Shown here: positions 18,001-24,000 of the stretch, piece by piece
Numbering within the stretch: position 1 is the stretch's first letter
How the letters are laid out: every line of letters starts with the position of its first letter
From: a virus
Lineage: Duplodnaviria; Heunggongvirae; Uroviricota; Caudoviricetes
DNA length: 39,162 nt
Strand: one strand, 5' to 3'
IMG/VR virus record: IMGVR_UViG_2529293036_000024
Position numbers: made by a program

Positions 18001-21000
18001 CAGTCCGATCGCTCAGGACCCCCACGGGCGTATTTACTACACTGACGGGCGTTTTCCTAAAGTGACGGATGCGACTATTGCCACAAAAGGGGACGGGAAT
18101 CACCCGACATCATCGTATCGTCTGGGGATCCCCGCGCCGACGACAGCTCCTGTCTGTACTGTTCAGCAGGGCGGTGATGTTTCTGACGATAACCCGAATG
18201 ATGATGAAACCCGGTTTTATACGGAAACCTTTGTCTCAGATTATGGTGAAGAAGGTCCGCCAGGTCCGGCGTCTCTGGAGGTAACACTCCGTACTCCGGG
18301 AACTGCGGTACAACTGACGCTGGCTCCGGTGCCATTGCAGAATGCCAGTATTAAACGTCGCCGGATTTATCGCTCTGCATCAGGTGGAGGGGAGGCGGAT
18401 TTTTTACTTGTGGCTGAACTGGATGCATCCGTGCTCAGTTACACGGACAAAATACCGGCGAAAAACCTTGGGCCTTCCCTGGCGACATGGGATTACCTGC
18501 CGCCGCCAGAGAATATGACAGGCCTTTGCCTGATGGCTAACGGTATTGCCGCCGGGTTTGCCGGTAATGAAGTGATGTTTTCGGAAGCGTATCTGCCGTA
18601 TGCATGGCCGGAAGTGAATCGTCACACGACGGCAGAAGATATTGTAGCTATCTGTCCGCTGGGAACGTCACTGGTGGTGGCGACAAAGGGGGAGCCTTAT
18701 TTGTTCAGTGGGGTATCACCGTCCACAATTTCTGGTTCCAAAATCCCTTCAATGCAGGCGTGTCTGAGCAGGCGGAGTATGGTTGCGATGGAGGGTTTTG
18801 TGCTGTATGCAGGAACAAATGGCCTGGTGTCTGTTGATGCAAACGGTAATGTCGCGCTGGCGACGGAACAGATTGTTTCACCGGAACAGTGGCAGAGTCA
18901 GTTTAATCCGGCCTCCATTGTGGCTTATCCCTGGCGTGGTGAATACATTGCCTGTTACACGAAACCGGATGGTAAGCAGGATGTGTTTGTATTCAGTCCG
19001 GTGAACATGGATATCCGTTATCTCAGTACACCGTTTGACTGCGCATGGGTTGATCTCGCGAAAGATATGATGCGCGTGGTGACAGGAGACAAAATGTCAG
19101 TGCTTGCCGGGGGGGCTCTGCCCTCCACGATAAGGTGGCATTCAAAAATTTTTTCATTACCTGAAAGAACCTCTTTTTCCTGTATCAGGGTGAAATCTCC
19201 GGCGCCTGAGCGGGTGGGGATCACCATTATGGCTGATGATGTTCCTGTGATTCATTTTGCGCCGGGTACGTTTAAGGGAAGTGTGGTGAGACTTCCGGCA
19301 GCAACCGGGCAAAACTGGCAGGTGATGGTATCCGGATTCGGGCAGGTGGAACGAATAACCCTGAGTACATCAATGTCGGAGATGCCGGTATGACCAGAAA
19401 ACCGTGGCGTGCGGGGAAGGATTTATCCACTGTTGTGGAGAATATGGAAATTGGCACCGGGCAGCGTGGTGACGGACGTCACGCATTTGTGACCCGTGAG
19501 GAACTGGTTGGTCTTAAACTCGCCCGGCGTCGAACATCGGGTGGTGCCTCATATGCACTGAATCCGGGTATTGAGATTGACAGTACTTTAATGACTGTTG
19601 ATTTTCCCACAAAACCGCTGAATTTTAAGGCGACCGGTGGATTTGGCTCGGTTCTTCTTGAATGGGATATGCCTAATTATCGCGGACATTCACTGACTGA
19701 AATCTGGCGGGGTACGGAGGATGACCTTGCTGATGCAGTGCTGGTTGCCACGACGCCGGGGCAGGTTTACGGCGATCCGGTTGACCCTGGCTGGTCGGGA
19801 TTTTACTGGATACGTTTTGTTAACGCGGCAGGAGTGAAAGGTCCATGGAATGCTGAAAAAGGCACTCAGGCACAAACACAGATCGGCGTGAAGGCCATCA
19901 TTGACCAGATCCGCGATGAGGCTGCAAAGTCGCCGGTTGTGTCCGAGCTGCGTAAAGAAATAAAAAACGCGCAGGGGCAGGCTGTAAAGGATGCTGCAAT
20001 TAAGACAACCGAAGTTGTAGGGACTCTCAGGGAAGAAACGACAAGAACGATTGGTGGTATTGAAACCCGCATTAGCACACTGGATTCGTCAACCAGTGAA
20101 TCGCTTAATGAGGTCGACAAGCGCATCACTAAATTGGATAAAGAAGGCGGTGAAGCTTTTCTTGCAATGTGGTCAAAAAAAGCGGGAGTTGATGGTATCA
20201 CTGCGGGGATCGGGATTGTCGCCGGAAAAGACAGTGAAGGCAGGCCTGTAAGTCAGGTTGCAATTTCTGCGTCGCAGTTGTTTGTCTTTGACCCGAATAA
20301 TCCGGATAACACAGCCTATCCGTTTGCGGTATCAGGTGGCAAGGTAGTGATCCCGAAAGCGATGATTTATGACGCGGTGATTGAAACACTGGTGTCGCGG
20401 AAGGTTGTGGCGGATGAGGTAAAAGCCGGGGTAAGTATCACTTCGCCAGTTATCCGGAGTGCCGTTATTCAGAACGGAAACTTTCAGGTTGATTCTCAGG
20501 GTAACCTGAATATTGGAGGCCTTTTCAGTGTTACGTCACAAGGGCAACTGACAATTCGTTACTCTAATCAGAATGTAGGACTGGTGATCCGCAATGATAA
20601 AATTGAGGTTTATGACCAGAATGGACGACTGGCTGTTCGCATAGGCAGATTACGCTGATCAGGAGGTGAGTATTGGAATACGGTTTTGCCATTTATAACA
20701 GAAATAACGTTAATGTTACGGGCGTGCTGACTCCAGTATTTTTCCTGGACAGATTTACAGCGGAGTCTGGCTCAAAGACGTACACTAATAAACCCGACGG
20801 GAAATCATTGCAGGCTGTATGTTGTTTATTTCCCTGGAATAATGTATTTGCGGATCGGAAAGTACCGAAGATAACCATTAATGACAATACGGTGACGTGG
20901 TCGAATCTTGAGCAGGGTATGGGATCTTATATTTATACATTCTGGGGATAAGTGTTATGTACGGTTTGAGCATTATGAAGCCGGATGGCAGCGTATGGAT

Positions 21001-24000
21001 AAGTCCAGGTTTTACGCCGCAGTGTCTGATCAACAAAGGCACCATACCGGCGACTGAAAAGTCTTTTTTTAAAACATCAATCCCGTCAGGCAAAAGTTGT
21101 TTTTCTTTATCAGAACAGAGAAGAAGGCCGATGTCATGTACACGCATGAACAGATTGATGGATATCATGCACTAAGGCTTCATGTAATTGTCAGGGGAAC
21201 GAACCCTGGTGTTACGACGGTTTATGCTTTCGCGAATATGGTTACTCCACCTTCTGAGTATGGTATCGCCATGTATAACCCGGACGGTGAGATGATTTAT
21301 CATGGCGAAATGATGCTGCTTGACGCGAAGTTAATACCTGTTGATATCAAATTTGAAAAGGACCTTGGATATCCATGCGCAATCATGCCTGCACTGGTCG
21401 GGTATTATAACTGGAAAAGAACTCCTTATGATCGACCGATTTATACCACATCCACTGGTGCTACAGGAAATAAAATATATTCCTGTGAGCATTATTCCGG
21501 TGGTGCAACATGGGATATTCGAAAGCCGTATATAGATAAGGTCCTGGTTATTAATACATCAGTATATGATTAGTTGAAGCGAGTCTTTAATATTCATTTA
21601 AAATGTCTAAAAAGATGTATTATTAAAAAGTTTAGCGTGTTATCTGAATACAGGATATCTTAAATGAAGAGTATAGCAACACTGGTTGTGTGTGCAATCT
21701 CCGGGATTGCCTGTGTAAATTTATCTGCACATGCAGCAGAAGGAGAGCATACAATTTCTCTGGGGTATGCGCACTTTCAGTTTCCGGGACTGAAGGATTT
21801 TGTAAAGGATGCGACTGCTCATAACAGGGAGACTTTCAGTCATTTCGTCAACAGAAACTACTTTTCTTCATTGGGCGAATATACAGATGGTCGGGTCAGT
21901 GGATATGAAGGCAAGGATAAAAATCCACAGGGCATTAATATCAGGTATCGCTACGAGATAACGGATGATTTTGGCGTTATCACCTCTTTTACATGGACGC
22001 GTTCTCTCACTAACTCACAGACATTTATTGATGTGCAGTCAGCCGATCATACCAGGAAGATTAAGAATCCGGCAGCTTCTGCCAGAACGGATATCAGGGC
22101 GAATTACTGGAGTCTGTTAGCGGGGCCTTCATGGCGGGTTAATCAGTACATGAGTTTATATGCGATGGCAGGGATGGGCGTTGCTAAAGTTAGCGCTGAC
22201 CTGAAAATTAAGGACAATATTAACAGTAGTGGCGGATTTTCTGAAAGCAACAGCACGAAAAAAACCTCCCTTGCGTGGGCTGCAGGTGCACAGTTTAACC
22301 TGAATGAGAGTGTTACACTGGATGTGGCTTACGAAGGTTCCGGCTCTGGCGACTGGCGCACGAGTGGCGTTACTGCTGGCATTGGCCTGAAATTCTGACC
22401 TGTATCCGGTAACCGTTTACTACCCGCTGTGATGGCGGGTTTTTTATTGCCCGTACAGGGCAAAAACCGTAAATTATGCGTGGGTGCCTTTCGGCTGATG
22501 GCTGGAGGGTGAACCTGAAGGCCTGATGTGGAAAGGCCCCGAGTCAACTTAACGTTAACCCGAGGCCCTAACACTTCGTACCTTAAGCAAGTAGAAGGTT
22601 AGCGCCTCTCTGTAAAAGGAGTCAAGCGCTATGTCGCAAAAATCGCTTATCACCGTCACAATTTGCATGACGGTTATCTTCACCATCTGGATGTTGCACG
22701 GTTCACTGTGTGAGTTCCGGCTGAATTTGTGGGGAGCGGAGTTTGCGGCGTTCTTACAGTGTAAGCAGTAGGAAAACCGCGACGGGGACGAGAGTCCCCG
22801 TCAACTGGTTGCTGAGGTTCAGCCGATATGGCACCCGTTTCAGGTGAGAGAATGAACGATAAAATTCTCTGGTATATGCAGCGTGTTGTGAGAAATTCCC
22901 GCAACCCTGAATTTATGAATGAAGTTAAAGACGCCTGCCTTAAAAAGCAGGCGTTTTGTTTTGAGGCACCTGATGGCTTTTTGGTGCTGCGTTCTGTGCT
23001 CAGTGCTGATGGTATCCCTTATGTTCTGGTGTTGCTGGGCGTGTGTACGGGGAGTAACAGCGTTGAGCGTTACCTGCCGGAGGTGAAGACATTAACCCAT
23101 CTGGCTGGCGGACGCTGGGCTGAGTTCCATACGGCAAGGCGGGGATTTATCCGGCTGGGAAAACGACTGGGCTTTGAGCGAATGCCGGATGATGAGGATG
23201 GCTTCATGGTGTTCAGGATAGCGGTCTGACTGCTACAGTTTTCATCATTGTGTTTAAACCAACATTGTAATTCACATTCTGACCCTGCTCCGGCAGGGTT
23301 TTTTGTTATCCAGGGGGCCATTATGGGTGGAAGTAAAGGCGGTGGTGATACCAAAGTAAAACCAACAGCAGCGCAAATAGCACAGGAAGAAGTGGCCTGG
23401 AAAGGGTGGCAGGATTACAAAAATATCCTCCGCCCGGCTGAAGATAACTTCATGGAAAAGGTCGATGACCTGAACAGTGAGCAGCAGTACGACAATATTG
23501 CTGGCACCACAAATCTGGGGTATCAGAAACAGTTTGGCGAAGCACGGAAGGAGCTTGCGGGTAATCTTGCTCAGTCCGGCGTTGACCCATCCAGTGGTCG
23601 TTTTAATGCGGTAATGAATGCGAACCAGAGTGACCAGGTAACCGGGCAGATTGACACAACCACACGGGGGCAGGTATCGCAGGCAGATAAGTATGTTGCC
23701 GGGCTACAGGATGTTGCTGCTCTCGGTTCTGGTCAGAAGGCGGATGCGTTACAGAGTTTTAACTCTCTGGCAGACAGCAGTCTGGCAAAAGCTAAATCGG
23801 ATGCACAGGCGGCGTTTACGAAACAGCAGGGGCGAGCCTCTCTTGTTGGCGCTGGTCTGGGTGCGGCAGGTGCATATGCGATGCATAAGGCTGGCGGTAG
23901 CGGAGGAAGTGGCGGTGCTAAAACACCTGGCACCGGCGCTAATGCCATTCAGCATCAGGCTCAGAACTGGAGACTGTGATTATGGAGTACGGTAAATACG

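What the first reader, a model, noticed from the sequence alone, without database searches (positions are those of the whole stretch)
20673..21573. Cluster of three small paralogous ORFs sharing a YG-x-x-I-(Y/M)-N-x-(D/N)-G motif between the tail fiber and lom
Three consecutive ORFs in three different frames each contain a related motif (MEYGFAIYNRNN; MYGLSIMKPDGS; EYGIAMYNPDGE). The first has a strong aggagg RBS with a TTG start. ORFs 2 and 3 overlap around 21136-21175 near homopolymer runs (ttttttt at 21066-21072), so they could be one gene with a frameshift. Function unknown; the position is typical of cargo or receptor-binding accessory proteins.
Basis: seen in the sequence. Interest (0 to 1): 0.5.

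Follow-up and report, generated by a model that had tools for sequence, protein, structure and literature searches.

The report
Split tail-tip receptor-binding genes, frameshifted
The "three small paralogous ORFs" are two already catalogued genes of Shiga-toxin phage 933W/Sp5 (L0126 and L0127), the second cut in two by a single missing T that is most likely a sequencing error; together they look like a split, three-domain receptor-binding protein that sits at the tip of the phage's tail needle.

Summary
The window is a 933W/Sp5-type Stx prophage. ORF1 (20673-20951) is L0126/ECs1234 (92 aa). ORF2 and ORF3 are one gene, L0127/ECs1235 (205 aa), broken by a 1-nt deletion: T5 at 21100-21104 where 933W has T6. 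None of 361 E. coli or 161 phage records carries T5. The window has two more unique 1-nt deletions that break another conserved gene, so an artefact is the likeliest cause.

The shared motif is real (3 hits, 0 expected) and starts each of three ~95-aa beta-sandwich domains. The two halves of L0127 are related (hhalign P 1.4e-6). L0126 is only weakly similar to them (P ~0.01). It is clearly homologous to the N-terminal domain of 309-325-aa proteins in which all three domains are fused. Those genes sit directly after J-like tail-tip genes.

The parts
19390..20658 (+). L0125/ECs1233 homologue: central tail needle / tail-tip protein (422 aa). It is the presumed docking partner of the module.
   Evidence: Pfam PF09327 Phage_Tail_Tip E 6.5e-11 and PHROG 496 E 9e-187. 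Residues 138-421 align to the extreme C-termini of J-like proteins that precede the same module in JenP1, Bas04, a Lonsdalea prophage and Vid5 (E 6e-8 to 2e-3). Essential in Sp5 (PMC5155283).
20661..20666 (+). AGGAGG ribosome-binding site, 6 nt upstream of the TTG start of L0126
   Evidence: Read directly from the sequence.
20673..20951 (+). L0126/ECs1234 (92 aa, TTG start): small beta-sandwich protein, equivalent to the N-terminal domain of the fused three-domain proteins
Evidence: PHROG 557 E 1.7e-35. Identical to RefSeq WP_000455634 coordinates. AF2 model pLDDT 82.8 with six strands.
20679..20708 (+). Motif copy 1 (YGFAIYNRNN), at the start of the L0126 domain
20957..21104 (+). L0127/ECs1235, 5' part in its original frame (residues 1 to ~49, through KSCF)
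   Evidence: PHROG 425 positions 3-52. Identical to 933W L0127 up to the T run.
20960..20989 (+). Motif copy 2 (YGLSIMKPDG), at the start of L0127 domain A
21100..21104 (+). T5 run, the site of the 1-nt deletion (T6 in all relatives examined). It codes for the conserved C-F-F-F.
   Evidence: No 100% match to this stretch in 361 E. coli and 161 phage records. No exact hit in viral contigs. C48 F50 F51 are invariant in the family.
21103..21573 (+). L0127 3' part, now in the -1 frame (rest of domain A plus domain B, residues ~50-205; stop at 21571-21573)
   Evidence: PHROG 425 positions 50-224, E 3e-59. Identical to 933W.
21259..21288 (+). Motif copy 3 (YGIAMYNPDG), at the start of L0127 domain B
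   Evidence: hhalign aligns residues 1-57 of domain A with 4-53 of domain B, P 1.4e-6.
21664..22398 (+). lom (Ail/Lom outer-membrane beta-barrel). A neighbour, not part of the module.
   Evidence: PF06316 E 1.5e-32. Terminator-like hairpin at 22422-22440.

Best explanation
The region holds two late genes of a 933W/Sp5-type short-tailed Stx phage, L0126 (92 aa) and L0127 (205 aa). They lie in the same orientation as the central tail-needle gene L0125, with no terminator-like site between them.

L0127 is a tandem of two ~100-aa beta-sandwich domains, and L0126 is a third domain of the same general kind. Each domain opens with a YG-x-x-(I/M)-x-(N/K)-x-(D/N)-(G/N) segment. The pair is the split form of a three-domain protein (N-A-B) that other phages encode as one 309-325-aa gene immediately after the J-like tail-tip gene.

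Inferred mechanism, not shown: L0126 and L0127 form a heterodimer. It docks on the C-terminal tip of the trimeric needle. It contacts an outer-membrane beta-barrel protein of the host, as the structurally similar RBP of phage Oekolampad does with LptD. The related FritzSarasin module is only predicted to bind BtuB. BamA is the published candidate receptor for this phage group. Because Sp5 mutants lacking either gene were not among those reported as non-infectious on K-12, the module is probably an auxiliary or conditional receptor binder rather than the only one.

The split of L0127 into ORF2 and ORF3 is a 1-nt deletion in a T6 run. It is most likely a sequencing or assembly error, less likely a private inactivating mutation, and not a programmed frameshift.
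For: Identity and frameshift:
- The region is 99.9% identical to 933W and more than 400 records, with one extra base in every listed top hit.
- The only difference from 933W is T5 versus T6 at 21100-21104.
- No record carries T5.
- The other two unique indels in the window are also 1-nt deletions in short homopolymers. Both break the conserved esterase gene.

Domain architecture:
- Domain A versus B: hhalign P 1.4e-6, probability 90%.
- The predicted strand patterns of L0126 and L0127 domain A nearly coincide (23-28, 33-36, 46-51, 66-70, 73-77, 86-91 versus 24-30, 37-43, 48-54, 60-67, 70-77, 87-93).
- L0126 is homologous to the N-terminal domain of ten fused proteins.
- The fused gene directly follows the J-like gene in Pantoea phage Vid5 and Pectobacterium phage Sabo.
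- The split pair follows or faces the J gene in a Lonsdalea prophage, FritzSarasin and JenP1.

Function:
- L0127 is 44% identical over its full length to bas04_0023 in the RBP locus of FritzSarasin, whose receptor is BtuB (PMC8594841).
- The phi24B homologue gp54 was detected in the virion proteome, and unassigned density sits at the needle tip (bioRxiv 10.64898/2026.04.10.717836).
- An in-silico study proposed the same pair as undetected RBPs (PMC12309495).
- Neither protein has a signal peptide or TM segment (maximum 19-residue Kyte-Doolittle hydropathy 0.8, against 2.1 for Lom).
Against: - Sp5 in-frame deletions of ORF72 (ECs1234) and ORF73 (ECs1235) were built. Neither is among the nine essential mutants or the two with reduced infectivity on K-12 (PMC5155283). 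This argues against an indispensable RBP.
- No sequence-level link to the Oekolampad RBP was found: phmmer gave nothing, hhalign P 0.03, and no PDB sequence hit.
- The motif segments themselves are the low-confidence parts of the L0127 model.
- Receptor binding, heterodimer formation and docking on the needle are all untested here.
- Without reads, a sequencing error cannot be told from a real mutation.
Confidence: 0.6

Rival explanations
1. The T5 allele is a genuine inactivating mutation. In this particular prophage L0127 is a pseudogene, tolerated because the gene is dispensable.
For: Sp5 mutants lacking ORF73 were not reported as non-infectious on K-12, so loss could be tolerated. Resident prophages commonly decay (general knowledge). 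The window also differs from its best reference by 40 substitutions and a shared natural G7/G8 polymorphism, so it is a distinct isolate.
Against: None of about 520 related records has T5. The other two unique differences are also 1-nt homopolymer deletions, and both fall in one other conserved gene, the esterase that decorates the phi24B capsid. This pattern is typical of base-calling error. There are no insertions and no larger decay.
Confidence: 0.25
2. Programmed -1 ribosomal frameshifting or transcriptional slippage on the T run joins ORF2 to ORF3 and makes full-length L0127.
For: A -1 slip of a P-site tRNA-Phe from UUU (21101-21103) to UUU (21100-21102) would restore exactly the wild-type ...SCFFFIRT... 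sequence (read). Low-level spontaneous slippage is therefore conceivable.
Against: All relatives encode the protein in a single frame with T6. A run of five T is short for transcriptional slippage (general knowledge). The site is not a canonical X XXY YYZ heptamer in the zero frame (TGT TTT TCT). The two-frame arrangement is not conserved anywhere.
Confidence: 0.02
3. The genes are lysogenic-conversion cargo or membrane proteins, as their database names say ('outer membrane protein', 'membrane associated protein'; PHROG category moron). For example, they could be superinfection-exclusion factors acting with Lom.
For: PHROG and RefSeq names. The genes lie next to lom, and small exclusion genes do sit in the equivalent locus of siphoviruses (bas04_0025, bas18_0026).
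Against: Neither protein has a signal peptide, lipobox or hydrophobic segment, unlike Lom and the Bas04 lipoprotein. The same two-gene cassette occurs in siphoviruses of genera treated as virulent (FritzSarasin, JenP1), where conversion genes make little sense. gp54 is in phi24B virions. The fold matches a virion RBP.
Confidence: 0.05
4. One or both proteins are assembly chaperones or adaptors for the needle tip, not receptor contacts. L0126 is the more likely candidate.
For: gp55, the L0126 homologue, was not detected in phi24B virions. Small genes after fibre genes are often chaperones (general knowledge). In the fused proteins the L0126-like domain is N-terminal. In the Oekolampad RBP, the part nearest the tail is poorly ordered and makes no modelled receptor contact.
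Against: If L0126 were needed to assemble the essential needle (ORF71), deleting it should abolish infectivity, and it does not. The domain is covalently part of the RBP-like protein in the fused forms.
Confidence: 0.15

Closest known systems
L0126/L0127 of phage 933W = ECs1234/ECs1235 (ORF72/ORF73) of Sp5 = gp55/gp54 of phi24B (the 'Ig-like' and 'hand-like' proteins of Matusiak et al. 2025)
   Same: Nucleotide identity is 99.9% over 20600-21700. The flanks are the same: needle gene upstream, lom downstream.
   Different: The window lacks one T in the T6 run, which splits L0127. 933W and phi24B annotate the small gene from an internal ATG (75 aa), whereas the conserved N-terminus requires the TTG start (92 aa).
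BtuB-associated RBP locus of Warwickvirus FritzSarasin (Bas04): bas04_0024 (92 aa) + bas04_0023 (204 aa) + lipoprotein bas04_0025 (Maffei et al. 2021)
   Same: The same two-gene cassette next to the J-like tail-tip gene. L0127 is ~44% identical over its full length and L0126 is ~52% identical.
   Different: That phage is a siphovirus, the cassette is convergent with J, and it is accompanied by a lipoprotein that may be a superinfection-exclusion factor. The Stx phage is short-tailed, the cassette is co-oriented with the needle gene, and no lipoprotein gene lies between it and lom. The receptor there is BtuB. For Stx phages BamA is the reported receptor, but which protein binds it is unknown.
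RBP of Dhillonvirus Oekolampad (bas18_0025, 321 aa; PDB 9rpt chain C), bound to an open state of LptDE (Dunbar et al. 2025)
   Different: There is no significant sequence similarity. It is a single chain rather than two genes. Its receptor is LptD. Foldseek TM-score is only 0.44, so the relative domain placement differs or the model is imperfect.
Fused three-domain homologues (309-325 aa), e.g. Pantoea phage Vid5 gp23 and Pectobacterium phage Sabo CDS0036
   Same: They contain an L0126-like domain followed by both L0127 domains, in the same position after the J-like gene.
   Different: They are one polypeptide, only 20-27% identical to L0126 in the N-domain, and have no experimental data.
pb5 of phage T5 (a separate RBP attached non-covalently to the central fibre tip)
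   Same: The concept is the same: a separate RBP carried by a trimeric central fibre that lacks its own receptor-binding domain (as discussed in PMC8594841 and PMC12685063).

Membership tests
PHROG 425 + PHROG 557 tail-tip pair ('hand-like' + 'Ig-like') | Full-length profile match of the large protein to PHROG 425 | tested here: met
   ORF2 matches positions 3-52 (E 8e-16) and ORF3 matches positions 50-224 (E 3e-59). Together they cover the profile.
PHROG 425 + PHROG 557 tail-tip pair ('hand-like' + 'Ig-like') | Profile match of the small protein to PHROG 557 | tested here: met
   E 1.7e-35, residues 1-92 against profile positions 1-92 of 100.
PHROG 425 + PHROG 557 tail-tip pair ('hand-like' + 'Ig-like') | Encoded directly next to the central fibre / J-like gene that ends in a Phage_Tail_Tip-type C-terminus | tested here: met
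   The upstream gene at 19390-20658 carries PF09327. The same synteny holds in a Lonsdalea prophage, Bas04 and JenP1.
Locus-encoded RBPs of small siphoviruses (Maffei 2021 'bona fide RBP loci') | Sequence homology to an RBP allele with an assigned receptor | tested here: met
   42-47% identity over 100% of L0127 to Warwickvirus-type phages, including FritzSarasin (BtuB).
Locus-encoded RBPs of small siphoviruses (Maffei 2021 'bona fide RBP loci') | Cognate superinfection-exclusion lipoprotein gene in the locus | tested here: not met
   No ORF with a lipobox or signal peptide lies between L0125 and lom. Bas04 and Oekolampad have one. JenP1 also lacks one, so this feature is common but not universal.
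Locus-encoded RBPs of small siphoviruses (Maffei 2021 'bona fide RBP loci') | Required for infection / determines the terminal receptor | not testable with these tools
   Literature only. Sp5 mutants lacking ORF72 or ORF73 are not among the non-infectious or low-infectivity mutants on K-12 (PMC5155283). This speaks against strict requirement in this phage.
Oekolampad-type RBP (PDB 9rpt_C) | Same fold | tested here: met
Oekolampad-type RBP (PDB 9rpt_C) | Detectable sequence homology | tested here: not met
   phmmer finds none. Profile-profile P 0.03-0.18. PDB sequence searches are empty.
Oekolampad-type RBP (PDB 9rpt_C) | Binds the extracellular face or lumen of an essential OM beta-barrel | not testable with these tools
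   Only in-silico docking to BamA has been published (PMC12309495). There are no binding data.
Programmed -1 frameshift site | Two-frame arrangement conserved in relatives | tested here: not met
   All full-length homologues are single ORFs. C-F-F-F is conserved and encoded by T6 in 933W.
Programmed -1 frameshift site | Canonical slippery heptamer X XXY YYZ in the zero frame | tested here: not met
   The zero-frame codons at the site are TGT TTT TCT.
Outer-membrane / membrane-associated protein (the database names) | Signal peptide, lipobox or transmembrane segment | tested here: not met
   Maximum 19-residue Kyte-Doolittle hydropathy is 0.82-0.83 for both proteins. It is 2.09 for Lom and 1.76 for the Bas04 lipoprotein.

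The most novel reading that the evidence does not exclude
L0126 and L0127 are the split form of a widespread three-domain scaffold that phages hang on the tip of a J-like central fibre to engage large outer-membrane beta-barrels. Its sequence-related members include the modules linked to BtuB (FritzSarasin) and FhuA (JLBYU60). The LptD-binding Oekolampad RBP shares the fold. In Stx phages the target would be BamA. The YG hairpin motif that opens each domain, and a look-alike at the extreme C-terminus of the needle protein (KIEVYDQNGRLAVRIG), would be the elements that link the needle, L0126 and L0127. RBP families now described as 'unrelated' would then be one fold family, and JenK1/JenP1-type Nonagviruses (60% identity, receptor unassigned) would share the Stx-phage receptor.
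Probability: 0.25. Interest if true: 0.6.

Novelty: already known. Interest (0 to 1): 0.3.

Why it matters
The practical point is that the apparent three-ORF cluster is an annotation trap. One missing base in a homopolymer turns a known 205-aa gene into two overlapping ORFs.

Biologically, the gene pair is a current candidate for the still unidentified protein by which short-tailed Stx phages recognise their host. That matters for how Shiga-toxin genes spread.

- The pair is a split version of fused three-domain proteins encoded after J-like genes.
- The large protein shares the fold of the experimentally solved LptD-binding RBP.

Both give concrete handles for testing the idea, for example co-expressing the two proteins or looking for the complex at the needle tip. 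The Sp5 knockout data caution that the module is not essential on K-12.

Tried and rejected
- Pfam and NCBIfam scans of the split and the repaired proteins found nothing.
- PDB sequence searches with L0126, L0127, the family profile and a fused homologue found nothing meaningful.
- Shallow-profile hhalign (Neff 1.4-1.9) could not show paralogy beyond the motif. It needed the ~100 homologues from the full HMM search.
- At first a tblastn hit of fused protein P0123 that overlapped both genes in tunus- and Bas04-type phages looked like an alignment across both genes. On checking frames, it is an upstream extension in the large gene's own frame (3501 and 3558 share a frame; the small gene is in another). 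I do not use it as evidence.
- The L0126 model against the PDB gave only generic beta-sandwich hits, and 9rpt_C was not among the 60 matches listed.
- The Oekolampad RBP family profile against the L0126, L0127 and fused profiles was not significant.
- A literature search for '933W' with 'L0127' gave no paper. The J Virol 2023 FhuA paper treats the J-like protein as the RBP and does not address this cassette.
- Phase variation at the T run was considered and rejected: there is no length variation among hundreds of records.

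
Full report
**What is there.** The window is a 933W/Sp5-type (Traversvirus) Stx prophage. Positions 20600-21700 match more than 100 phage records and about 300 E. coli chromosomes at 99.9% or better. In every listed top hit the record's span is one base longer than the query's.

In phage 933W the region holds, in order:
- L0125, the tail-tip or needle protein;
- L0126;
- L0127 (618 nt, 205 aa);
- lom.

RefSeq annotates the small gene as 92 aa. A base-by-base comparison shows a single difference from 933W: five T at 21100-21104 where 933W has six.

ORF2 (20957-21175) and ORF3 (21097-21573) are the two halves of L0127. 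They match positions 3-52 and 50-224 of the same profile, PHROG 425. ORF1 matches PHROG 557.

**Is the frameshift real?**
- None of 361 E. coli records or 161 phage records that match a 96-nt probe across the site is 100% identical. The best are 99.0%, with a 97-nt span.
- The exact T5 string has no hit in the viral contig collection.
- Against the closest phage record, the window shows 40 substitutions and four indels over 36.8 kb. All four are 1-nt deletions in homopolymers.
- One of them, G7 near 17200, is a natural polymorphism shared with many genomes.
- The other three are unique to the window. Two of them (A4 to A3 near 1009, A3 to A2 near 1256) break the conserved 645-aa SASA/NanS-type esterase gene into three frames.
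- Three private, ORF-breaking, single-base homopolymer deletions in otherwise near-identical sequence look like sequencing or assembly error.
- A real pseudogene cannot be excluded without reads.
- A programmed shift is very unlikely. Every full-length relative is one ORF, and the T run encodes the conserved C-F-F-F.

**Is the motif and the paralogy real?** The motif occurs exactly three times in the six-frame translation, against none in 300 shuffles. Each copy lies at the start of a ~95-aa segment.

Pairwise BLASTP aligns only 10-12 residues (E 0.02-0.03), and shallow profiles do no better. A profile of 11 L0127 homologues, searched against 1.8 billion representative proteins, found 112 relatives. 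With those:
- the two halves of L0127 align at P 1.4e-6 (probability 90%, 50 columns);
- L0126 aligns collinearly to either half only at P 0.012-0.015.

I conclude that the tandem duplication inside L0127 is supported. A common origin with L0126 is plausible but not proven.

**Fusions.** About ten of the 112 relatives are 309-325 aa long, and in them the L0127 match starts near residue 105.
- After one iteration it hits all ten (E 1e-29 to 1e-35).
- The alignment is collinear, with conserved G4, D26, G33-S34, Y37 and G71-x-T73-x-x-W76.
- In Pantoea phage Vid5 (gp23) and Pectobacterium phage Sabo (CDS0036), the fused gene directly follows the J-like tail gene.
- Stand-alone 85-99-aa homologues are also widespread. 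In a Lonsdalea prophage the order is J, then a 91-aa gene, then a 231-aa gene.

L0126 plus L0127 is therefore a split version of a three-domain N-A-B protein, cut exactly at a domain boundary.

**What it probably does.**
- L0127 has homologues at 42-47% identity in many ~50-kb E. coli siphoviruses and at 60% in Nonagvirus JenP1.
- In FritzSarasin (Bas04) the cassette is a 92-aa gene, a 204-aa gene and a lipoprotein gene, convergent with the J-like gene. [quoted passage not shown] (PMC8594841). Bas04's terminal receptor is BtuB.
- No sequence similarity to that protein is detectable, so this is a fold-level link only.
[quoted passage not shown] The large one was docked on BamA (PMC12309495).
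- A 2026 cryo-EM and proteomics preprint on phi24B found the 204-aa protein (gp54) in virions at low abundance. It saw unassigned density at the needle tip. It did not detect the small protein.
- Neither protein has a signal peptide or hydrophobic segment, so the database names 'outer membrane protein' and 'membrane associated protein' are unsupported.

**The main counter-evidence.** The systematic in-frame deletion study of Sp5 built mutants of ORF72 (ECs1234, 92 aa) and ORF73 (ECs1235, 205 aa). It lists only ORFs 60, 61, 62, 65, 67, 70, 71, 79 and 80 as essential, and ORFs 64 and 76 as reduced (PMC5155283). The module is therefore not required for plaque formation or lysogenisation of K-12. 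That fits an auxiliary or condition-dependent receptor binder better than a sole terminal RBP. It would also make a real loss of L0127 tolerable.

**Context.** No terminator-like site separates L0125, L0126, L0127 and lom. A good hairpin followed by a T run comes after lom, at 22422-22440. The C-terminal ~280 residues of L0125 align to the very C-termini of the J-like proteins that precede the same module elsewhere (E 6e-8 to 2e-3).

**Verdict.** The sequence observation is real, but the gene count and the frameshift site were misread, and the frameshift is most likely an artefact. The genes are known and their likely role is already under discussion in the literature. This analysis adds three things:
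- the exact lesion;
- evidence for a three-domain split/fused architecture;
- a fold-level link to a solved RBP-receptor complex.

Interest is modest.

Noticed in passing
window 58-1995 (deletions near 1009 and 1256): The SASA/NanS-type esterase gene (645 aa in NC_049922; reported as a capsid-decorating protein in phi24B) is broken into three reading frames by two 1-nt homopolymer deletions. No complete E. coli genome shares them.
   Followed up: partly
window ~17200: The G7 run (G8 in NC_049922) lies in the stretch between the short tail-fibre C-terminal gene and the next small ORF. Many E. coli genomes are 100% identical here, so this indel is natural variation, unlike the other three.
   Followed up: yes
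window ~20596-20655 (C-terminus of L0125): The last ~19 residues of the needle protein (KIEVYDQNGRLAVRIGRLR) contain a phi-x-phi-Y-D-x-N-G segment that resembles the YG-x-x-I-Y-N-x-D-G motif of the three downstream domains. Similar tails end the J-like proteins of Bas04, JenP1, a Lonsdalea prophage, Vid5 and Sabo. This may be a docking element.
   Followed up: partly
L090 (JenP1 KP719132) 2217-3115: Nonagvirus JenP1 carries a 93-aa + 204-aa cassette with 60% identity to L0127, the closest siphoviral relative found. Maffei et al. 2021 state that the RBP allele of the related Nonagviruses JenK1, HdK1 and HdsG1 matches no known receptor. If JenP1 carries the same allele, those phages may share the Stx-phage receptor.
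   Followed up: partly
window 22631-22771: A 46-aa ORF downstream of lom corresponds to a Hok/Gef-family toxin gene annotated in EDL933 RefSeq (EDL933_RS06980).
   Followed up: no
window 15867-16106: Near-identical 141-nt segments offset by 99 nt (96% identity) lie inside the collagen-like lateral tail-fibre gene. These are tandem repeats in the fibre shaft.
   Followed up: no
P0008, P0012, P0014, P0018-P0020 (public protein clusters): Several public gene calls of L0127 relatives start at the internal Met61 (MYTHEQ...) or carry out-of-frame tails. One (P0014) is a frameshifted L0126-L0127 chimera. The T- and A-rich 5' part of this gene seems prone to assembly frameshifts in other data sets too.
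   Followed up: no
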